The notes: generated from the sequence alone by a model not told the origin. Counted from the stretch's first letter, positions 773-45,734 are shown. The stretch: DNA of 64,000 bases from Verrucomicrobia bacterium ADurb.Bin018 (GCA_002071335.1 MWEZ01000001.1:7262-71261), one strand, 5' to 3'. Translations and numbers: made by a program.

Positions 773-2224
773 TTATCCGATGCTGTGTTCCAGTTTCAGC
801 TCCAGCATATTCACGGCCTCCACCATGTATTCCAGCGGCAGCGTCTTGAACACGTCCTTGCAAAAGCCATTGACCAGCAGCGACACCGCGGCCTCCGTGT
901 CCAGCCCGCGCGACTGCAAATAAAAAAGCTGCTCCGCGCTGATCCGGGAGGTGGTCGCCTCGTGCTCCACGATGGCGCTCGGGTTGCTCACCTCCAAATA
1001 CGGGAAGGTGTTGGCCGCCGCCTTGTCGCCCACCAGCATGGAGTCGCACTGCGAATAGTTGCGCGCGTTCTCCGCGCCCGGCGCAATCCGCACCAACCCG
1101 CGGTAGCTGTTCTTCGACTGGTCGCAGGAAATCCCCTTGGCCACGATGGTGCTGCGCGTGTTTTTGCCGATGTGAATCATCTTCGTGCCGGTGTCCGCCT
1201 GCATCTGGTTGTTTGTCAGTGCCACCGAATAAAACTCGCCCACGGAATCGTCGCCCAGCAACACCACGCTGGGGTATTTCCAGGTGATGGCAGCGCCCGC
1301 CTCCACCTGCGTCCAGGAAATCTTGGAGCGTTTGCCGGCGCACCGCCCGCGCTTGACCACAAAGTTGTAGATGCCGCCGCGTCCCGCCGCATCGCCCCCA
1401 TACCAGTTTTGCACCGTGGAATATTTGATGGTGGCGTCGTCCAGCGCAATCAGCTCGACAATCGCGGCGTGGAGCTGGTTTTCGGGCCGCGCCGGCGCCG
1501 TGCAGCCTTCCACGTAGGACACCTCCGCGCCGACATCGGCAATGATTAGCGTGCGCTCGAACTGCCCCGTTTCGCGCGCGTTGATGCGGAAATAGGTCGA
1601 GAGGTCAATCGGGCATTTGACGCCCTTGGGGATGTACACAAATGAGCCGTCGGAAAACACCGCCGAGTTGAGCGCGGCGTAAAAGTTGTCGGTCGGCGGC
1701 ACAACGCTGCCCAGATATTTCTGCACCAGTTCCGGATGGTTGCGCGCCGCCTCGGAGAACGAGCAGAAAATGATGCCGTGCTCCGCCAGCATTTTCTGGT
1801 GGGTGGTGCCGACGGATACGCTGTCAAACACCGCATCCACCGCCACGCCCGTCAGCCGCTCTTGTTCGCGCAGCGGAATGCCCAGCCGCTGGAATGTACG
1901 CACCAGAATCGGGTCCACCTCGCCGGCCTCATTGACCGGCCGCGCCATGGATTTGGGCGCGGAAAAGTAGCGGATGTCCTGAAAATCAATTGGCGGGAAC
2001 TCCACCGCCGCCCATGTGGGCGCGGGCTGTTGCGCCCACCAACGGTAGGCCTTGAGGCGGAACTCGAGCAGATAATCCGGCTCGCCCTTGCGCTGGGAAA
2101 TCGCCCGGACAATGTCTTCGTTCAGGCCCTTGGGGAAGGTGTCCTGCTCAATGACCGTCTCGAAGCCGTATTTATACTCGCGGCCGCGCTGCTGGAGCTG
2201 CTCGGTTTGTATCTTGTTCGCCAT
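773..2224 (-). CDS. sufB: Fe-S cluster assembly protein SufB
   Basis: 483 aa with typical SufB length and conserved blocks. 10 nt upstream of sufC. Confidence 0.9.
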
Positions 2225-36155: not shown

Positions 36156-36566
36156 TTACAGGACAACCCCGCGCCGCACGAACGTCGTGCGGATCGGCAA
36201 CTTTGTCGCCGCCAGCCGCAGGCATTCCAGCGCCATGGCCTCGGACACGCCGTCCATCTCGAACAGGATGCGGCCGGGGCGAATCACCGCCACCCAGCCC
36301 TCGATGGCGCCCTTGCCCTTGCCCATGCGGACTTCGAGCGGCTTCTTGGAATAGGACTTGTCGGGGAACACCCGGATCCAGAGCTTGCCTTTGCGCTTCA
36401 TGGCGCGGTTCATCGCCACGCGCGCGGCTTCGATCTGGATGTTGGTCAGCCAGCAGCGCTCCATGGCGCGCAGGCCGTATTCGCCGAACGCCAGACTGTT
36501 GCCGGATTGCGCCATGCCCTTGCGCGAGCCGCGCTGGCTTTGGCGGTACTTCACACGTTTAGGCAT
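36156..36566 (-). CDS. rplP: 50S ribosomal protein L16
   Basis: [10 protein letters not shown]-terminus. Confidence 0.9.
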
Positions 36567-37236
36567 AAGGGGCATAGGACTTCTCCTTATTCGTCACACT
36601 CTTTGCCGCGGTGTCTTCCGGCTTCACGCAGATCCAGCACTTCACGCCGATCTTGCCGGCCATGGTGTTGGCTTCCGCAAAGCCGTACTGCACGTCCGCG
36701 CGCAGCGTCTGCAGCGGCACCTTGCCCACCATGTAATGCTCCGTGCGGGCCAATTCCGCGCCGCCCAAACGACCGCAGGCCTGCACGCGGATGCCCAGCG
36801 CGCCCATGTCCATGGTCAGTTGCAGCGCGCGCTTCATCGCCCGGCGGAACGCCACGCGGCGCTCCAACTGCAGCGCGATGCTCTCGGCCACCAACTGCGC
36901 GTTGGTGTCGGGATTGCGCACTTCCTTGATCTCGACATAGATTTCCTTGCCGGTCTTGGCGCTCAATTCCTCGCGCAGCTTGTCAATGCCCTCGCCCTTG
37001 CGCCCGATCACCACGCCCGGCCGCGCCGTGAACACCGTCACCCGCGCGCGCTGCGCATAGCGTTCGATCACAATGTCGGCCACGGCGGCATCCTTCAGGC
37101 GGGTGCGCACCAGGTCGCGGATCTCCAGATCCTCGTTCAACAGATTGCCGAATTCTTTTCTTTCCGCGAACCAGCGGCTCTTCCACTGCTTGTGGACCGC
37201 CGTACGGAACCCGATCGGATTGACTTTTTGGCCCAA
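36559..37236 (-). CDS. rpsC: 30S ribosomal protein S3
   Basis: [12 protein letters not shown]-terminus. KH domain. Confidence 0.9.
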
Positions 37237-37257
37237 AATGCGCCTCCTTCTTCTCGT

Positions 37258-37608
37258 CTACTTCTTCTTGCGCGGCTTCTTGTCCGTCAACGTGATTCGG
37301 ACATGGGCCGTCTTTTTGCGAATCGGCGAGGCTGAACCGCGCGCCCGCGCCCAGTACCGCCGCAGCGTCGGGCCGTTCTCAATGACCGCCCGCGCCACAT
37401 ACAGCTTGTCCGCCGACAGCTCCGCGTTGTTTTCCGCGTTGGCAATCGCCGACTTCAGCGTCTTGCCGATGGCCACCGCCGCCTTGCGCTTGTTCAATTC
37501 GACCACCTGCAGCGCTTCGCCCACGCTCTTGCCGGTAATGGCCCGCGTCAGGTCCCGCGCCTTGGTCGGCGTCAACCGTACATACTTTGTTACTGCTATG
37601 ATTTCCAT
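37258..37608 (-). CDS. rplV: 50S ribosomal protein L22
   Basis: Typical L22 N-terminus and basic C-terminal tail. Confidence 0.9.
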   Translation of the reverse strand: MEIIAVTKYVRLTPTKARDLTRAITGKSVGEALQVVELNKRKAAVAIGKTLKSAIANAENNAELSADKLYVARAVIENGPTLRRYWARARGSASPIRKKTAHVRITLTDKKPRKKK

Positions 37609-37618
37609 GTCTCGTTCC

Positions 37619-38371
37619 TCAAGGACCTTCCGGCCGAATCAGCACCGCTCGGTCCCCTGTTTGGGGGTAATCGCCACGCGCGGTCTCCTCAACCGCCGCG
37701 CCGGCAATTCTCTCTCTCACATCCACCACCCGGATCCGCGCCACCCGCCGGCGGTCCCGCAGAACCGTCAAGGGCAACCCGTAACGGACACCCTGCCGGG
37801 CGCCCTGATCCAGGATCACCAGACCCAGTTCCGCGTTCACGTCCACCAGCCGCACTTCGCGCGGCGCATCCAACGGCTCTACCGCTGGGGCGCCCGCCGC
37901 CGCCGCCCGCCGTGCTTCCTGCACATCCAAGGCGGCCTGCGCTTCGGCCAGGGCCGTGCTCAACTGGCGAATCCGCCGGGTCAGTTCGGCCACGGCGCGC
38001 CGCATCTCGGCATTTTCCTGCGCCAGCCGGACGGTCACCAAGCGGGCTTCGCTCGTCACCAGGTCCAATACTTCATCATGATGGCCATCCGCCGCGCCGC
38101 CCATGGCCGCTGCTGCCGGCCCGTCCGTGCGGATGGGAATGTTCGCTTCATCCTGCGCGGACTGCACCGAAAGCTCGGCCGTCTCCGCCTCAACCGGAGC
38201 CTCCGGGACTGGCCCGGGCTCCATCTCAAGACGCGCCGGCGCGGACGCCGGCCCTGTCGTCAAAGAACTATTTTGCGCTTGCCGCGTGCCGAACCACCAG
38301 CCCGCCGCCAGCGCGGCTCCCACCACCGGCACGGCCCAGATCAGCCGCCAGCCTCGACGGAAGCCCATCAT
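37619..38371 (-). CDS. hypothetical membrane-anchored coiled-coil protein embedded in the S10 operon between rpsS and rplV
   Basis: 250 aa. N-terminal TM helix, acidic linker, a heptad-like Ala/Arg/Glu coiled coil, and a C-terminal small beta-rich domain (VRLVDVNAELGLVILDQGARQGVRYGLPLTV). Gaps of 10-11 nt to both ribosomal neighbours. Confidence 0.55.
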   Translation of the reverse strand: MMGFRRGWRLIWAVPVVGAALAAGWWFGTRQAQNSSLTTGPASAPARLEMEPGPVPEAPVEAETAELSVQSAQDEANIPIRTDGPAAAAMGGAADGHHDEVLDLVTSEARLVTVRLAQENAEMRRAVAELTRRIRQLSTALAEAQAALDVQEARRAAAAGAPAVEPLDAPREVRLVDVNAELGLVILDQGARQGVRYGLPLTVLRDRRRVARIRVVDVRERIAGAAVEETARGDYPQTGDRAVLIRPEGP

Positions 38372-38382
38372 CCAAAAATCTC

Positions 38383-38667
38383 TTACTTCAGCGCGATCGT
38401 CTTATCCGTCGCCGCGCCGTGCTTGCGGAACGTCCGGGTGGGCGCAAACTCGCCCAGGCGGTGTCCCACCATGTTTTCCGTCACGAACACGCTCGTGAAC
38501 ACCTTGCCGTTGTGCACCGTGAACGTATGGCCCACGAATTCCGGCAGGATCATGCTGCGGCGCGACCAGGTCTTGATCGGACGCTTGGCGCCACTGGCGT
38601 TCAGCGCTTCCACCTTCTTCAGCAGGTGGTCTTCCACATACGGTCCCTTTTTGATTGAGCGCGTCAT
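38383..38667 (-). CDS. rpsS: 30S ribosomal protein S19
   Basis: [10 protein letters not shown] motif. Confidence 0.9.
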
Positions 38668-38668
38668 G

Positions 38669-39499
38669 TTACTTCTTTCTCCGTTCCACGATAAACTTGC
38701 TCGACGGCTTGCGGCCGCTGCGGGTCTTCTTGCCCTTGGTCAACTGGCCCCACGGGGTCACCGGGTGCCCGCCGCCGGAGGTCCGGCCTTCGCCACCGCC
38801 CATCGGGTGGTCCACCGGGTTCATCGCCACGCCGCGCACCGTCGGGCGGATGCCCTTCCAGCGCTTGCGCCCGGCCTTGCCGAGGGAAATGTTTTCGTGC
38901 TCGAGGTTGCCCACCTGGCCGATGGTGGCATAGCATTCGCCGCGCACCTTGCGCAGCTCGCCGGAGGGCAGCTTGACCTGCACATAACCCGCGTCGCGCG
39001 CCGTCACCCGGGCCACCATGCCCGCGCTACGCACCATCTTGGCGCCGGCGCCGGGGGTCAGCTCCAGGGCGTGGATCGGCATTCCGATCGGAATGCTCGC
39101 CAGCGGCAGCGCATTGCCGTCCGTTGGTTCCGCTTCCGGCCCGGCCATGACGGTGGCGCCCACTTGCAGCCCGTTCGGCGCCAGGATGTAGCGCTTTTCA
39201 CCGTCGGCATAGGCCAGCAACGCCAACCGCGCCGTGCGGTTCGGGTCATATTCCAACGCCTGCACCTTCGCGGGAATGTCCCGCTTGTCGTGCCGCATGA
39301 AATCCACCTGCCGCAAAAACTTTTTATGCCCGCCGCCGCGGTGCCGCACCGTGATTCGGCCCGCCGCGTTGCGCCCGGCCTTGCTCTTCTTGATTTTGAT
39401 CAGCCGGCGTTCGGGGCGCTTCTTGCTCAGGCCTTCGAAATCCGAAAGCGTGGTGAAGCGCAATGCCGCCGTGGCTGGCTTGTATTTTTTCAAACCCAT
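38669..39499 (-). CDS. rplB: 50S ribosomal protein L2
   Basis: 276 aa with conserved L2 blocks. Confidence 0.9.
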
Positions 39500-39512
39500 G
39501 TTCGATCCTCGC

Positions 39513-39791
39513 TTATGCCATCTCGATGGTGTGTCCGGCCTGCAGCGTCACCACCGCGCGCTTCCAGTCCGGGGTCCGGCCATACGCCGCCGTCCGCAGC
39601 CGCTTGGCCTTGCCCGGGCGGACCATCGTATTCACATCCTTGACCTTCACGTTGAACCGCTGTTCCACCTCGCGGCGGATTTCCAGCTTGTTCGCGGCGC
39701 GGGCCACCGCAAAAATGTATTGGTTGCCGGTTTCTTTCAGGCGCGTGCCCTTTTCCGTCACCAGCAGCTTTTTGACAATCAGGTTCTTCAT
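39513..39791 (-). CDS. rplW: 50S ribosomal protein L23
   Basis: 92 aa in the conserved operon position. Confidence 0.85.
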
Positions 39792-41082: not shown

Positions 41083-41391
41083 TCAAATCTTGATCTGGAT
41101 GTCCACGCCCGCCGGCAGGTTCAGCTTCTTCAGCTCATCCACCGTCTTCGCTGTGGGGTCAATAATGTCCAGCAACCGCTTGTGGGTGCGGATCTCAAAT
41201 TGTTCCATGGACTTCTTGTCCGCGTGGACGCTGCGATTCACCGTATAGCGCTCGATGCGCGTGGGCATCGGGATCGGGCCCGCCACGCGGGCGCCCGTGC
41301 GCTTGGTCGTCTCGACAATTTCGCTGGCCGATTGGTCCAGCATCCGGTGGTCGAAAGCCCTCAGCCGTATTCTGATTCGTTGTCCGCTCAT
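41083..41391 (-). CDS. rpsJ: 30S ribosomal protein S10
   Basis: [14 protein letters not shown] motif. Confidence 0.9.
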
Positions 41392-41404
41392 GTTCTCTAT
41401 TCTT

Positions 41405-43501
41405 TCAACGGTTCATCAACTCTCGGCACAGGCTTTCCGGCACCACATCGAACCGGGTGGGTTCCATGGTGTACCCGGCGCGTCCACGTGTCAAAGAACG
41501 CAATGTCGTGGCGTATCCAAACAACTCCGCCAAGGGCACGGAGGCCTCGATTGCCCGCGTTCCATCCCGCTGCGCCACGTCTCTCACCTGGCCGCGGCGC
41601 ATGTTCAGGTCGCCCAGCACGTCGCCGAGGTGTTCCTCGGGCAACTCAATCTCGAGCGCCATGATGGGCTCCAGAAGGACCGGGCGCGCTGCCAGCGCCG
41701 CCTCACGCAGCGACATTGAAGCCGCCGACCGAAAGGCGATTTCCGACGAGTCAACCGGATGCCATTGGCCACTAACCACCGACACCCGCACGTCAACCAG
41801 CGGGAAACTTCCTAGCACGCCTGTGCTCAACCCATCGCGGATTCCTTCCTCCACAACAGGTCGAAAATCGTGCGGGATTATGTCGGAAGAAATTTTGAAG
41901 TCAATACTATTTCCGCTTCCCCGTTCATTTTTTTCCAGCAGCAGTCCCACCATCGCAAAATGGTGCTTCCCGGCCAGTTCCCGGTCAAATGTGTATTCCG
42001 CCCGCGCCGACTCTGTAATCGTTTCGCGATACGCCACCATCGGCCGCCCCGCGTTGGCCTGTACCTTGAACTCCCGCAGCATCCGGTCGCGCAAAATTTC
42101 CAGGTGCAGTTCGCCCATGCCCTTGATGATCATCTGCCCCGTTTCGACATTCTGCCCCACTTGGAATGTCGGGTCCTCGTCTGACAGATCCGCCAGCACC
42201 TCTTGCAGTTTTTCCTTGTCCGCCTGCGTGCGCGGTTCAATCGCCATCGAAATCACTGGCTCCGGGAAATGAATGCGCTCCAGCACAATCGGTTTTTGCT
42301 CGGCGCACAGCGTGTCGCCCGTGCCCACACCCTTGATGCCCGCAATCGCGCCGATTTCGCCCGAATAGAGAACATCCACTTCTTCGCGCTGGTTCGCGTG
42401 CAGCCGGATCAGCCGCAGCACCCGCTCGCGCTTTTGCGTGCGCGGGTTGTACACGTTCGCGCCTTTTTTCAGCTCGCCCGAATACACACGCACAAACACC
42501 AGCCGCCCCACAAACGGGTCCGTCGCCACTTTGAACGCCAGCGAACACAACGGCTCGAAGTCGCTGGTCTCGCGCACCTGTTCCGCTTCGGTTTTCGGAT
42601 GCCGTCCCTTCACCGCCGGCACATCCAATGGCGACGGCAAATAATCCACCACCGCGTCCAGCAGCGGCTGAATCCCCTTGTTGCGCAAACTGGTCCCGCA
42701 TAGCACCGGCACCATCTTGCCGGCCACCGTCGCGCGGCGAATCCCCGCCCGCAGCATCGCTTCCGGCAGATCGCCTTCCTCTAGATAAGTCGTCAGCAGT
42801 TCTTCATCCGTCTCTGCCACCGCCTCCAGCAGATGCTCGCGCGCCTTTTGCGCCGCCATCGTCAACTCTGCGGGGATCGCCTGCGTTTGCACTTTGGCCC
42901 CCAGCTCTGCATCGGCAAACGTCAGCGCCTGCATTCGCACCAAATCCACCACCCCGCGGAATCCTTCTTCCTGGCCCCACGGAATCTGTACCGGCACCGC
43001 CGGCGAATTCAATTGCTCACGAATCTCCCCCACCACCCGGACAAAATTCGCCCCCGTGCGGTCCATTTTATTGATGAAAGCAATTCGCGGTACCGCATAC
43101 TTGTTCGCCTGCCGCCACACTGTCTCCGACTGCGGCTGCACCCCGCCCACCGCGCACAGCACCCCCACCGCCCCGTCCAGCACCCGCAGCGACCGCTCCA
43201 CTTCCGCCGTAAAATCCACGTGCCCCGGGGTGTCAATAATGTTGATTTGCTGGTCCCGCCAAAAACAAGTCGTCGCCGCGCTGGTGATGGTGATTCCCCG
43301 CTCTTGCTCCTGTACCATCCAGTCCATGACCGTATTGCCGTCATGCACCTCGCCCATCTTGTGCACCCGCCCCGTGTAATACAGCATCCGTTCCGTCGTG
43401 GTCGTTTTCCCCGCGTCAATATGCGCCACGATCCCGATATTCCGGATCGTCGCCAGCGGATGCGCCCGGCCCGCCGCTTCCAATTTGACCTCTTTCGCCA
43501 C
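41405..43501 (-). CDS. fusA: elongation factor G
   Basis: [10 protein letters not shown]-domain. 698 aa. Lies directly upstream of rpsJ, with no tuf between them. Confidence 0.9.
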
Positions 43502-43705
43502 GTTCCTGTGTTTCCTTATATATGAATAAAGGGCCGCAACCTACCATGCCCCCCCGCCCGCCGCAAGACCGAACCCCCTGCTCCAATTCGCGCCAGCGGT
43601 ACGCTCACTGCGGGGCGTCGCCGCCCGCCCCCGCGGTGTTTTGCCCGCGGTTTTGACTTTGCAACGCGGGGGCGCTCTTTCTATGATGGCGCGGAATACG
43701 AGCTT

Positions 43706-44059
43706 ATGAAAGCGGTTGTTTTACTGACCATTTCCAATATATTCATGACTGTGGCTTGGTACGGGCACTTGAAGTACCTGCCGGCCGCCAAGTGGCCCCT
43801 GCTAGGGGTCATTTTGATTAGCTGGGGCATCGCGTTTTTCGAATACTGCTTCCAAGTGCCGGCCAACCGCATCGGCTACGCCACCTTTTCCGCCATGCAG
43901 CTCAAAATCCTGCAAGAAGTCATTTCGATCAGCATCTTCGTGGTGTTTGCGATTGCCGTGCTCGGCGAAAAACTGCGCTGGAATCACGCCATCTCATTCC
44001 TGCTGGTGTTGGGCGCGGTGTATTTCGCTTTTCTAAAACCCGCCGCGGAGGGCTCCTGA
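43706..44059 (+). CDS. small 4-TM membrane protein (DMT-like/DUF486)
   Basis: 117 aa, four hydrophobic helices. Confidence 0.45.
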   Translation: MKAVVLLTISNIFMTVAWYGHLKYLPAAKWPLLGVILISWGIAFFEYCFQVPANRIGYATFSAMQLKILQEVISISIFVVFAIAVLGEKLRWNHAISFLLVLGAVYFAFLKPAAEGS

Positions 44060-44060
44060 C

Positions 44061-45734
44061 ATGTGCGGGCGAATGGCATTGTGGGGCTGGCTGCTGGTTT
44101 GCTTCTTGGCCTCCGCGCCGTTGGCGCGTGCGTACGAACCGCTGCTGCTGGGCGATGATGAGCGCTTGCTGGTGTTGGCCCCGCATCCGGACGATGAAGT
44201 CCTCGCCGCCGGTGGCGTTATCCAAGAAGCGCTCGATCTCGATGTGCCCGTGCAGATTTGTTTTTTCACGCTGGGCGAGAATAACGAGATCGCCGCGCTG
44301 TTTACCCGGCGACATCCCGCGTTCCGACCGGGGCCGGAGCAGGCGTTCGGCGGCCAACGCCATCGCGAAGCCCTGGCCGCGGCCACCCAATTGGGCCTGC
44401 AAGAGGAAGACATTGTCTTCCTGGGCTACCCGGATCCCGGCACGCTCGACATCTGGAATCACCATTGGCGCACCGTGCCGCCATATCGCTCGCCGGTGAC
44501 GCGCGAAAACACCGTGCCCTACGATTTCGCCCTGACGCCCGGCTCCGCTTTCGCCGGCGAAGATATTCTGGACGATTTGCAAGAGGTGATCCGCGAGTTT
44601 CAACCCACCCATGTCCTGCTGCCGCACCCGGCCGACCAAAACACCGACCACCGCGCGCTCTACTTTTTCGCGCGGGTTGCATTGTGGGAATTGATGACGG
44701 AGGGCATCCGCCCGCAAGTCCTCACGTGCCCCGTGCATTTGGCGCGCTGGCCGGAAGCCAACGGTTTTCAACCGCAACAGCCGGCCGAGCCCCCCCCCTT
44801 CCTCGCCAAGGACGGGCAGTGGTGGGAGTATTCGCTCGCGCCGTTCCAGGTGTCCAACAAGTTGGCCGCGCTGCGGCGCTACCACAGCCAATTTCTCCCG
44901 GCGCAAGCCTATTTGGAATTGTTCGTGCGCAAGACGGAGCTCTTCCACGAGCTAGCGGATTGGTCCTTCTCGCGCGGGCAAGGCCGCCGCGAGGTGCCGG
45001 CGCTGGATACCGCACAGTATCGGCCCAATCTTGCGCTTTTCCAAACGCTCGCCCAAACCGCCGGCACGTGGCGCGAAATCGCACAGCAAACCGCCACGGA
45101 ACAAAATGCGCTGGCCAACGCGGAAAACATGTTGGGCGCTTGCGCGCTGGATGGCGATGGCGCCAATCTCACGCTGACGTTCCACACCCAGCGCCCAATC
45201 GAGAGGCCCGCCGAGCTGGTTGTGCGGCTCTATGGCTACCGCCCCGACACTCCGTTTGGCGACATGCCGAAGATCAAGCTCCGGGCCGGCGCGGATGGCT
45301 GGCTGGATGTTCAGGATTTGGACCGCAAAATCGCACACGGCGCTACCGTCACGGCCGACATGCAAAACGAGCTCATTTTGCGCGTGCCGTACGCGCTGCT
45401 GGGCAATCCGGAAAAATTGTTCATCACCGCCAAGCTCATGAAGGGGAATCTGCCGATTGACGGTCTGCCTGCCATGACGCTGGATTTGGGCGATATGCCG
45501 GCCCTCGCGCTGATACCAGCCGCACCGGCAGAACCCGCTGCTCCGCCAGAACTTCCCCCCGCCAAACCAAGCAAGCCCACAAAACCCGCCAGACCTGCCA
45601 AAGCAACTAAGCCTGCTCCGACTCCTTCTCCCCCGCCTGCCGTTGCGCCGCCGACTGCCCTTGCGCCACGCGTGAGCTTGCCGACCAAAGCCGTCCCGGC
45701 CCATACCGAGGCCAACGAGCCGGTGCAGTGGTGA
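44061..45734 (+). CDS. PIG-L/LmbE family deacetylase with signal peptide and Pro-rich C-terminal tail
   Basis: LAPHPDDEVL motif and HPADQNTDH. C-terminal PAKPSKPTKPARPAKATKPAPTP. Confidence 0.6.
   Translation: MCGRMALWGWLLVCFLASAPLARAYEPLLLGDDERLLVLAPHPDDEVLAAGGVIQEALDLDVPVQICFFTLGENNEIAALFTRRHPAFRPGPEQAFGGQRHREALAAATQLGLQEEDIVFLGYPDPGTLDIWNHHWRTVPPYRSPVTRENTVPYDFALTPGSAFAGEDILDDLQEVIREFQPTHVLLPHPADQNTDHRALYFFARVALWELMTEGIRPQVLTCPVHLARWPEANGFQPQQPAEPPPFLAKDGQWWEYSLAPFQVSNKLAALRRYHSQFLPAQAYLELFVRKTELFHELADWSFSRGQGRREVPALDTAQYRPNLALFQTLAQTAGTWREIAQQTATEQNALANAENMLGACALDGDGANLTLTFHTQRPIERPAELVVRLYGYRPDTPFGDMPKIKLRAGADGWLDVQDLDRKIAHGATVTADMQNELILRVPYALLGNPEKLFITAKLMKGNLPIDGLPAMTLDLGDMPALALIPAAPAEPAAPPELPPAKPSKPTKPARPAKATKPAPTPSPPPAVAPPTALAPRVSLPTKAVPAHTEANEPVQW

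What the first reader, a model, noticed from the sequence alone, without database searches (positions are those of the whole stretch)
37619..38371. Non-ribosomal membrane-anchored coiled-coil gene inserted inside the S10 operon between rpsS and rplV
The S10 operon order rpsJ-rplC-rplD-rplW-rplB-rpsS-rplV-rpsC-rplP-rpmC-rpsQ is among the most conserved in bacteria. Here a 250-aa ORF occupies the rpsS-rplV junction with gaps of only 10-11 nt on both sides, so it must be co-transcribed with r-proteins. It has an N-terminal TM helix, an acidic linker, an Ala/Arg/Glu-rich coiled coil and a C-terminal small beta-rich domain with Gly/Val motifs (LGLVILDQGARQGVRYGLPLTV).

Co-expression with ribosomal proteins suggests a role coupled to translation or growth rate, for example membrane tethering, a ribosome-associated factor or a cell-envelope growth coupler.
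Basis: partly seen in the sequence, partly recalled or inferred. Interest (0 to 1): 0.6.

Follow-up and report, generated by a model that had tools for sequence, protein, structure and literature searches.

The report
Exported coiled-coil protein inside S10 operon
A real, conserved gene for an exported coiled-coil protein with a small beta-barrel head sits between the ribosomal genes rpsS and rplV throughout Verrucomicrobia and Kiritimatiellia, so it is a lineage-wide, unannotated and possibly essential envelope protein made together with ribosomal proteins, and probably not a ribosome component.

Summary
A 250-aa ORF (37619-38371, minus strand) lies 11 nt after rpsS and 10 nt before rplV.

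It is a real gene:
- It is under purifying selection.
- It has hundreds of homologues and no Pfam or NCBIfam family.
- Its position is fixed. S19 lay upstream in 72 of 72 testable related loci and L22 downstream in 87 of 89.
- These loci span Kiritimatiellia, Verrucomicrobiae (including cultured Prosthecobacter dejongeii) and Chthoniobacterales/Spartobacteria.
- Planctopirus limnophila and Chlamydia trachomatis have consecutive rpsS and rplV locus tags, so they lack it.

In published Verrucomicrobium spinosum TraDIS data, the gene at this position (VSP_RS22560, about 261 aa) is scored essential. Polar effects are not excluded.

Best reading: an exported envelope scaffold hard-wired to ribosome synthesis, as secY is in the spc operon. 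Its partner and exact role are unknown. Ribosome association is unlikely.

The parts
37619..38371 (-). Gene X: 250-aa exported coiled-coil/beta-barrel protein (stop codon 37619-37621)
   Evidence: ORF. 142 homologues at E<=1e-3. The family profile finds 687 clusters at E<=1e-10. dN/dS is about 0.37.
38279..38353 (-). N-terminal hydrophobic helix (residues 7-31), preceded by RR..R: a Sec-type signal anchor or signal peptide
   Evidence: AlphaFold helix 7-31. Residues 1-32 have pI 12 and no acidic residues. Family-wide signal-peptide-like statistics.
38090..38275 (-). Acidic, Ala/Pro-rich disordered linker (residues 33-94). It starts with the conserved S-L-T-(T/E) motif and has variable length in relatives.
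   Evidence: pLDDT <50. pI 4.05. A 26-47-aa insertion here in the 276- and 297-aa relatives. The SLT[DE] motif recurs in Verrucomicrobia.
37898..38086 (-). Long alpha-helix (residues 96-158), a probable coiled coil
   Evidence: AlphaFold single helix with pLDDT >90. In the best heptad registers, 67-72% of the a/d positions are L/I/V/M/A. Only generic coiled-coil hits in PDB and Pfam.
37643..37858 (-). C-terminal six-stranded beta-barrel (residues 172-243), FlgT_C-like. Invariant residues are G190, G198 and R219; it carries the VVDVRExIAGA motif.
38372..38382 (-). 11-nt rpsS-X junction (GAGATTTTTGG before the ATG)
   Evidence: no promoter or terminator consensus
37609..37618 (-). 10-nt X-rplV junction (GGAACGAGAC before the ATG). 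X ends ...RPEGP-TGA.
38383..38667 (-). rpsS (ribosomal protein S19), upstream neighbour
   Evidence: translation. Ribosomal_S19 Pfam hits at the equivalent gene in related loci.
37258..37608 (-). rplV (ribosomal protein L22), downstream neighbour. The link to X is kept even where the operon is split.
   Evidence: Ribosomal_L22 Pfam hits in related loci.

Best explanation
Gene X encodes a lineage-specific exported protein of the cell envelope that has become a fixed member of the S10 ribosomal-protein operon in Verrucomicrobiota and Kiritimatiellota.

Shown:
- It is a real, selected gene.
- Its place between rpsS and rplV is kept across deep divergence.
- No promoter or terminator consensus separates it from its neighbours.
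- It carries an N-terminal Sec-type signal peptide or anchor, an acidic spacer, a long helix and a C-terminal beta-barrel homologous to FlgT_C and related to the MreC and efflux-adaptor barrels.

Inferred:
- The protein is translocated by Sec. It stays anchored by its uncleaved N-terminal helix in Kiritimatiellia and is probably cleaved in most Verrucomicrobia.
- It oligomerises through the helix into a coiled-coil stalk.
- The barrel acts as a docking or self-assembly module on a periplasmic partner, such as a peptidoglycan-synthesis, outer-membrane or other envelope complex. MreC, FlgT and TsaP work this way.
- Because it is transcribed, and probably translationally coupled, with ribosomal protein genes, its supply rises and falls with ribosome synthesis. 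That ties an envelope component to growth rate, as secY does in the spc operon.

The partner and the exact process are not known.
For: Real gene:
- 142 close homologues.
- A profile search finds 3191, 687 and 108 clusters at E<=1e-3, 1e-10 and 1e-30, typically 255-285 aa long.
- The barrel's dN of 0.06-0.13 is as low as in the flanking ribosomal protein genes.

Fixed position:
- The S19-X-L22 order was read directly in called genes or ORFs of 14 loci: L001-L003, L009-L014, L095 and L097.
- A tblastn survey of 94 loci found S19 upstream in 72 of 72 and L22 downstream in 87 of 89 testable cases.
- One split operon still keeps X-rplV together.
- Kiritimatiellia and Verrucomicrobiae forms are homologous at hhalign probability 99.6%, E 1e-23.

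Export:
- Signal-peptide-like N-termini occur in 209 of 224 members, with no other hydrophobic segment and an acidic mature part.

Fold:
- Pfam FlgT_C is hit by 81 of 121 members and the MreC barrel by 16 of 121. NCBIfam MreC is hit by 20 of 121.

Importance:
- In V. spinosum TraDIS data the only locus tag between rpsS (VSP_RS22565) and rplV (VSP_RS22555) is VSP_RS22560.
- Its insertion index is 0.00127 (1 insertion in about 785 bp) and it is scored essential (PMC12283558 supplement).

Envelope hint:
- A distant two-barrel relative lies beside lgt, a murA-like gene, mreB and mreC.
Against: - No experimental localisation, partner or phenotype exists.
- The window protein itself falls below the Pfam threshold for FlgT_C (E 0.13, 13 bits against a cut-off of 27).
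- The window protein has a long (19-aa) hydrophobic segment without a clear cleavage site. Its topology rests on the positive-inside rule and on its relatives.
- The TraDIS 'essential' call may reflect polar effects on downstream ribosomal protein genes. The identity of VSP_RS22560 was inferred from position and length, not from its sequence.
- GC3 of X (0.76) is lower than in the ribosomal protein genes (0.83-0.89), so it is not codon-optimised like them.
Confidence: 0.55

Rival explanations
1. Cytoplasmic, membrane-anchored ribosome or translation factor. The N-terminal helix would anchor the protein with the helix and barrel facing the cytoplasm, where the barrel binds ribosomes or rRNA and tethers them to the membrane.
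For: - The gene sits inside the S10 operon and is always next to rplV.
- It is scored essential along with its ribosomal neighbours.
Against: - N-termini look like cleavable Sec signal peptides in most Verrucomicrobia (positive n-region, a 12-20-aa h-region, a small-x-small motif, then acidic residues).
- The positive-inside rule predicts an N-in, C-out orientation for the window protein.
- The mature part is acidic (median pI 5.27, below 7 in 91% of members), unlike RNA-binding ribosomal proteins.
- The best sequence and structure matches are to periplasmic barrels.
Confidence: 0.07
2. Passenger gene with a dispensable or conditional envelope role. It was captured early in the S10 operon and is kept there mainly because removing it would disturb the operon. 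The 'essential' call would be a polarity artefact, and there would be no functional coupling to growth rate.
For: - Transposon insertions in an operon of essential genes are expected to be lethal by polarity, and the paper's main text does not mention polar effects.
- X evolves 2-5 times faster at non-synonymous sites than its neighbours overall.
- GC3 is lower than in the ribosomal protein genes.
- The linker is nearly neutral (omega 0.5-1.1).
Against: - The barrel is as constrained as the ribosomal proteins (dN 0.06-0.13).
- The gene is retained in every testable locus across Kiritimatiellia and Verrucomicrobia, including a lineage where the operon broke. A dispensable passenger should have been lost repeatedly.
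- Its insertion density (1 in 785 bp) is lower than in rpsS (3 in 278) and rplV (6 in 389).
Confidence: 0.2
3. Secretion or translation monitor. Export of X, or termination at its C-terminal Pro-stop codon 10 nt before the rplV start, would modulate translation of the downstream ribosomal protein genes, in the manner of SecM-secA.
For: - X is an exported protein immediately upstream of rplV, with gaps of 4-20 nt in many lineages.
- X-rplV stay linked when the operon splits.
- The window protein and its close relatives end in ...RPxGP-stop.
Against: - The C-terminal motif is not conserved. The 276/297-aa Kiritimatiellia forms end in GSRGK, and Verrucomicrobia forms end in ...VDAQQ or similar.
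- The X-L22 gap is 39-170 nt in many Verrucomicrobia.
- Known monitors are short and poorly conserved, whereas X has a strongly conserved folded domain.
Confidence: 0.05
4. Not a gene: a chance ORF of a high-GC genome, or the real gene lies in another frame.
For: - High-GC DNA produces many long spurious ORFs here, for example an 856-aa ORF on the opposite strand.
- GC2 of X is high (0.54).
Against: - There are hundreds of protein-level homologues down to 35-45% identity with a conserved domain.
- dN/dS is well below 1.
- AlphaFold predicts the fold confidently.
- Alternative frames have no family hits.
Confidence: 0.01

Closest known systems
FlgT C-terminal domain (Pfam PF16538; Vibrio flagellar H-ring protein FlgT, PDB 3w1e and 8z5n)
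   Different: - X has no FlgT_N or FlgT_M domain.
- X carries an N-terminal anchor or signal, a long linker and a coiled coil instead.
- It is not in a flagellar locus.
- The window protein scores below the Pfam cut-off (13 bits against 27).
MreC (rod-shape protein: TM helix, coiled coil, periplasmic beta-barrels)
   Different: - X has one barrel, not two.
- It is not in an mreBCD locus.
- V. spinosum has a separate canonical mreC (VSP_RS17760).
- No member was shown to reach a curated MreC cut-off; the best E-values are 1.5e-4 (Pfam) and 6.8e-4 (NCBIfam).
secY, adk, map and rpoA: non-ribosomal genes embedded in ribosomal-protein operons
   Same: This is a gene for a non-ribosomal, membrane- or envelope-related protein that is co-transcribed with ribosomal protein genes, so its supply tracks ribosome synthesis. 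secY, adk and map also sit downstream in this window's cluster. In V. spinosum, secY and map appear in the same locus-tag run as the ribosomal protein genes.
   Different: - Those genes sit in the spc and alpha operons and are universal.
- X sits in the interior of the S10 operon at a junction that is otherwise uninterrupted.
- X is restricted to one bacterial lineage.
- X has no known function.
PVC 'signature protein' CT421.2 (Gupta et al. 2012, PMC3444138)
   Same: It is also a lineage-restricted hypothetical protein used as a marker of PVC relationships.
   Different: - CT421.2 is 53-80 aa long and is present in Chlamydiae and Planctomycetes.
- X is about 250-300 aa long.
- X is absent from the rpsS-rplV junction of C. 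trachomatis and P. limnophila.

They are different proteins.

Membership tests
FlgT_C-like beta-barrel domain superfamily (PF16538) | Sequence match to the FlgT_C profile at or above Pfam's gathering score | tested here: not met
   The window protein scores E 0.13 and 13.1 bits against a cut-off of 27. Among 121 family members, 81 hit at E<0.1, with a best E of 4.6e-6. Homology is therefore probable at family level but not by the curated threshold for this protein.
FlgT_C-like beta-barrel domain superfamily (PF16538) | Same three-dimensional fold as the FlgT C-terminal domain | tested here: met
FlgT (flagellar H-ring protein) | Three-domain FlgT_N/M/C architecture and a flagellar gene context | tested here: not met
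   Only the C-terminal barrel is present, and the rest is signal, linker and helix. The context is the S10 operon in all loci.
MreC | MreC barrel-core profile match (PF04085 / TIGR00219) and two periplasmic barrels | tested here: not met
   The window protein has no hit. Weak hits occur in 16-20 of 121 members, with best E-values of 1.5e-4 (Pfam) and 6.8e-4 (NCBIfam). There is a single barrel of about 75 aa.
MreC | Encoded with mreB/mreD and being the organism's only MreC | tested here: not met
   The gene is always between rpsS and rplV. V. spinosum has mreB and mreC at VSP_RS17765 and VSP_RS17760, away from the ribosomal cluster.
Ribosomal protein / ribosome-associated factor | Physical association with ribosomes | not testable with these tools
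   This needs ribosome purification. Indirect evidence is against it: a Sec-type N-terminus and an acidic mature part.
Ribosomal protein / ribosome-associated factor | Cytoplasmic, basic, RNA-binding character | tested here: not met
   The whole window protein has pI 5.44. The family's median pI for residues 36 to the end is 5.27.
Sec-exported or signal-anchored protein | Positive n-region, hydrophobic h-region, small-x-small motif, and no further TM segments | tested here: met
   Heuristic counts on 224 full-length members: 209 have the h-region, 194 a net-positive n-region, 201 a small-x-small motif, and none has a second apolar stretch. No dedicated predictor such as SignalP was available. 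The window protein's own cleavage site is unclear.
Conserved S10-operon member in Verrucomicrobiota/Kiritimatiellota | Located between rpsS and rplV on the same strand in relatives | tested here: met
   S19 is upstream in 72 of 72 and L22 downstream in 87 of 89 testable loci. Cultured Prosthecobacter dejongeii has the arrangement. One split operon keeps X-rplV.
PVC signature protein CT421.2 | Small (53-80 aa) protein shared by Chlamydiae, Planctomycetes and Verrucomicrobia | tested here: not met
   Length and distribution differ. The rpsS and rplV locus tags are consecutive in C. trachomatis L2 (CTL0786/CTL0785) and in P. limnophila (Plim_0481/0482).

The most novel reading that the evidence does not exclude
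X is an essential, phylum-specific periplasmic scaffold whose production is tied, through co-transcription and translational coupling with uL22, to ribosome production. That would make it a built-in coupler of envelope growth to translational capacity in Verrucomicrobiota and Kiritimatiellota. It would also make it a clean molecular marker uniting these groups to the exclusion of Planctomycetota and Chlamydiota.
Probability: 0.25. Interest if true: 0.8.

Novelty: new variant of a known kind. Interest (0 to 1): 0.6.

Why it matters
- The interior of the S10 operon is one of the most stable gene orders in bacteria. A non-ribosomal, exported protein fixed at the rpsS-rplV junction across a whole major lineage is unusual. 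This lineage includes the genera Prosthecobacter and Verrucomicrobium.
- I found no description of it in the open literature searched.
- It gives a simple gene-order marker that joins Kiritimatiellia with Verrucomicrobia and separates them from Planctomycetes and Chlamydiae.
- It points to an uncharacterised envelope component made in step with ribosomes. This is one of the roughly 100 unknown-function proteins among the 618 essential proteins reported for V. spinosum.
- A genetic system now exists in V. spinosum to test it directly.

Tried and rejected
- **Known families.** Pfam and NCBIfam on the window protein gave only sub-threshold hits (FlgT_C E 0.13; RodZ E 0.0065 over the TM/linker low-complexity part).
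- **PDB sequence search.** A search with the family profile gave only generic coiled-coil noise.
- **PVC signature protein.** I checked whether this is the known CT421.2. It is not.
- **Alternative frames.** Alternative-frame or antisense ORFs over the locus have no family hits.
- **RNA elements.** An Rfam scan of the whole window found nothing, so no known ribosomal-protein leader or RNA element explains the locus. The promoter/terminator scan found none.
- **Fold library.** The afdb50 fold library was unavailable, so UniProt-annotated structural neighbours could not be listed.
- **Akkermansia.** Literature searches did not yield usable locus tags or Tn-seq tables. Its presence in Akkermansia was therefore not established.
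- **Taxonomy.** Cluster look-ups for taxon names returned mostly unnamed metagenome proteins.
- **First model.** The first AlphaFold run, full length with 18 sequences, gave a poor barrel (pLDDT 50-76) and was not used for fold search.
- **Flanking-gene dN/dS.** Some comparisons picked wrong-frame ORFs in high-GC loci (values with dN>0.5). I ignored them.
- **MreC or FtsB orthologue.** Rejected, because V. spinosum has both elsewhere.

Full report
**Observation**

The window carries a ribosomal super-operon on the minus strand. The order is fusA (41405-43501), rpsJ, rplC, rplD, rplW, rplB (38669-39499), rpsS (38383-38667), a 250-aa ORF that I call X (37619-38371), rplV (37258-37608), rpsC, rplP, rpmC, rpsQ and onward.
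- X starts with ATG 11 nt after the rpsS stop codon. It ends with TGA 10 nt before the rplV ATG.
- No sigma-70-type promoter or intrinsic-terminator consensus lies in 36500-39600. Co-transcription is therefore the natural reading, though it is inferred and not shown.

**Is it a gene?**

Yes.
- A search of 5.8 billion proteins gave 142 hits. They range from 100% down to about 47% identity over the full length, and the named ones come from Kiritimatiellia MAGs.
- Codon comparisons with five distinct related loci gave an overall dN/dS of about 0.37. Values were 0.2-0.3 in the C-terminal domain and 0.2-0.37 in the helix. The linker is nearly neutral at 0.5-1.1.
- Non-synonymous divergence in the last 75 residues (0.06-0.13) is as low as in the flanking rplB, rpsS and rpsC genes (0.04-0.12).
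- Other-frame ORFs over the same DNA hit no Pfam family. These include an 856-aa antisense ORF typical of high-GC DNA.

**Is the position conserved?**

Strikingly so. Contigs encoding homologues at 48-64% identity all show rplB-rpsS-X-rplV-rpsC (L001-L003).

A genome scan then found the same arrangement outside Kiritimatiellia:
- a Verrucomicrobiae MAG (L010, 270-aa X);
- a 'Spartobacteria' MAG (L011, 272 aa);
- an unclassified bin with a short 164-aa form (L012).

A metagenome scan added 80 loci. I then ran tblastn with the window's S19 and L22 on all 94 loci held at that point.
- S19 lay upstream on the same strand in 72 of 72 loci with enough upstream sequence.
- L22 lay directly downstream in 87 of 89 loci with at least 150 nt downstream. 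The two exceptions have fewer than 270 nt left.

Further points on distribution:
- The cultured species Prosthecobacter dejongeii (GCA_014203045.1) has S19-X(264 aa)-L22.
- Named relatives also occur in P. fusiformis, P. algae, Terrimicrobium and Chthoniobacterales. All are annotated 'hypothetical'.
- Profile-profile comparison of the Kiritimatiellia and Verrucomicrobiae forms gives 99.6% probability and E 1e-23 over 138 columns.
- A full HMMER scan of 1.84 billion representative proteins found 687 clusters at E<=1e-10, mostly 255-285 aa long.
- In one lineage the S10 operon is broken exactly upstream of X, and X heads an X-rplV-rpsC-rplP... unit (L098). The tightest linkage is therefore X-rplV.

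**Where is it absent?**

Published tables give consecutive locus tags for rpsS and rplV in two other PVC organisms:
- Planctopirus limnophila (Plim_0481/0482; PMC12283558 supplement);
- Chlamydia trachomatis L2 (CTL0786/0785; PMC8762339).

There is no inserted gene in either. The insertion thus looks like a shared derived character of Verrucomicrobiota plus Kiritimatiellota. Lentisphaerae, Omnitrophota, Akkermansia and Opitutae were not tested.

**What is the protein?**

AlphaFold on the full length gives four parts:
- a helix at residues 7-31;
- disorder at 33-94;
- one long helix at 96-158 (pLDDT >90);
- a beta domain at 172-243.

*N-terminus and export.*
- Residues 1-32 have pI 12. The linker has pI 4.05.
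- Across 224 full-length family members, 209 have an N-terminal hydrophobic segment.
- 194 have a net-positive charge before that segment, 184 a net-negative charge after it, and 201 a small-x-small motif near its end.
- None has a second apolar stretch.
- The mature part has a median pI of 5.27.
- In most Verrucomicrobia the N-terminus looks like a cleavable Sec signal peptide, for example ...LSGASAQ|DDRSLTD.
- In the window protein the 19-residue hydrophobic stretch without a clear cleavage site looks like a signal anchor.
- A short S-L-T-(D/E) motif just after the hydrophobic segment is shared between the two groups. Its meaning is unknown.

*C-terminal barrel.*
- I modelled the C-terminal 93 residues with 121 diverse sequences. 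They fold confidently (pLDDT 84.7) into a six-stranded barrel.
- Foldseek also ranks FlgT first.
- At sequence level, 81 of 121 members touch Pfam FlgT_C (best E 4.6e-6) and 16 touch the MreC barrel. NCBIfam MreC models are touched by 20 of 121.
- The window protein itself stays below every curated cut-off.
- The helical part matches only generic coiled coils.

**Importance**

A saturated transposon study of Verrucomicrobium spinosum (PMC12283558) lists rplV as VSP_RS22555 and rpsS as VSP_RS22565.
- The single tag between them, VSP_RS22560, has an insertion index of 0.00127389. That equals one insertion in 785 bp, so the gene is about 786 nt or 261 aa, which is the family's length.
- It is classed essential.
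- rpsS has 3 insertions in 278 bp and rplV has 6 in 389 bp.

I infer that VSP_RS22560 is the orthologue from its position and length, and did not see its sequence. Polar effects on downstream essential genes could by themselves produce this call. V. spinosum has canonical mreC and ftsB elsewhere, so X is not simply their displaced copy.

**Mechanism**

The best-supported picture is an exported protein.
- It is anchored in Kiritimatiellia and probably released into the periplasm in most Verrucomicrobia.
- It forms a coiled-coil stalk and presents a FlgT_C/MreC-type barrel to a periplasmic partner, or uses the barrel for self-assembly.
- Its supply is locked to ribosome synthesis by its place in the S10 operon, as secY is locked into the spc operon.
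- A distant two-barrel relative sits beside lgt, a murA-like gene, mreB and mreC (L096). This is a weak hint in the same direction.

The compartment, oligomeric state and partner are inferred, not shown.

A pure passenger model conflicts with the ribosomal-protein-like constraint on the barrel and with retention in every locus examined. A SecM-like monitor model is attractive because X is exported and abuts rplV. However, the C-terminal Pro-stop is confined to the window's close relatives, and the X-rplV spacing is 39-170 nt in many Verrucomicrobia.

**Novelty and verdict**

No Pfam or NCBIfam family covers this protein. All database names are 'hypothetical' or coiled-coil misnomers. Full-text searches for the S10 operon or rpsS/rplV together with Verrucomicrobia found no description.

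The fold and the idea of non-ribosomal genes in ribosomal operons are both known. The family, its architecture and its fixed site inside the S10 operon appear to be undescribed. I rate it a new variant of a known kind, of moderate-to-good interest, with a direct experimental test now possible in V. spinosum.

Noticed in passing
L098 2501-3319 (protein P0367): In one Kiritimatiellia-like lineage the S10 operon is split exactly upstream of X. X is the first gene, followed by rplV-rpsC-rplP-rpmC-rpsQ. The upstream genes are divergent (HTH/PTS_EIIA, a pseudouridine synthase). The X-rplV link therefore survives where rpsS-X does not.
   Followed up: partly
L096 1975-3120 (protein P0381): A distant 381-aa relative from an AT-rich organism has a TM segment, a coiled coil and two copies of the barrel. 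It lies between lgt plus an RluD-like pseudouridine synthase on one side and a 254-aa hypothetical, a murA-like gene, mreB and mreC on the other. This is an envelope and cell-shape neighbourhood.
   Followed up: no
proteins P0288 and P0380: In two gene calls the X barrel runs in frame into L22, with no stop codon between them. Both start at an internal Met just before the barrel, so indel errors in the contigs are the likely cause. A real X-L22 fusion was not excluded.
   Followed up: no
window 37609-37640: X and its closest relatives end in ...IRP(E/D)GP followed directly by the stop codon, 10 nt before the rplV ATG. The 276/297-aa subgroup ends in GSRGK instead. A C-terminal Pro-stop is known to slow termination in E. 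coli (from my own knowledge). This might affect coupling to rplV.
   Followed up: no
window 38090-38371 (5' half of X): Synonymous divergence from related loci is lower in the signal and linker part of X (dS 0.17-0.54) than in the rest of X or in the flanking ribosomal protein genes (0.7-1.3). This inflates omega there. The cause could be codon or GC composition of Ala/Pro/Gly runs, or a nucleotide-level constraint.
   Followed up: partly
window 41391-44061: fusA ends 13 nt before rpsJ with no tuf gene between them. No rpsL or rpsG lies upstream of fusA; the next ORF, at 44061, is on the other strand. The usual str-operon layout is therefore altered here.
   Followed up: no
window 1028-1103 (-): ARAGORN predicts a tRNA-Leu(GAG) inside a coding-like 483-aa ORF (773-2224, minus strand). 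One of the two calls is probably wrong.
   Followed up: no
L012 2902-3396 and L022: A short 164-aa form of X (signal peptide, about 60-aa helix, barrel, no long linker) sits between rpsS and rplV in an unclassified bin (MJ-time_bin-3222). Its phylum was not determined.
   Followed up: no
window 38260-38275 and homologues: A short motif, S-L-T-(T/D/E), directly follows the N-terminal hydrophobic segment. It is often preceded by A-Q-(G)-N/D/E-R/S. It is shared by Kiritimatiellia and many Verrucomicrobia forms, which suggests a conserved mature N-terminus or recognition site of unknown function.
   Followed up: partly
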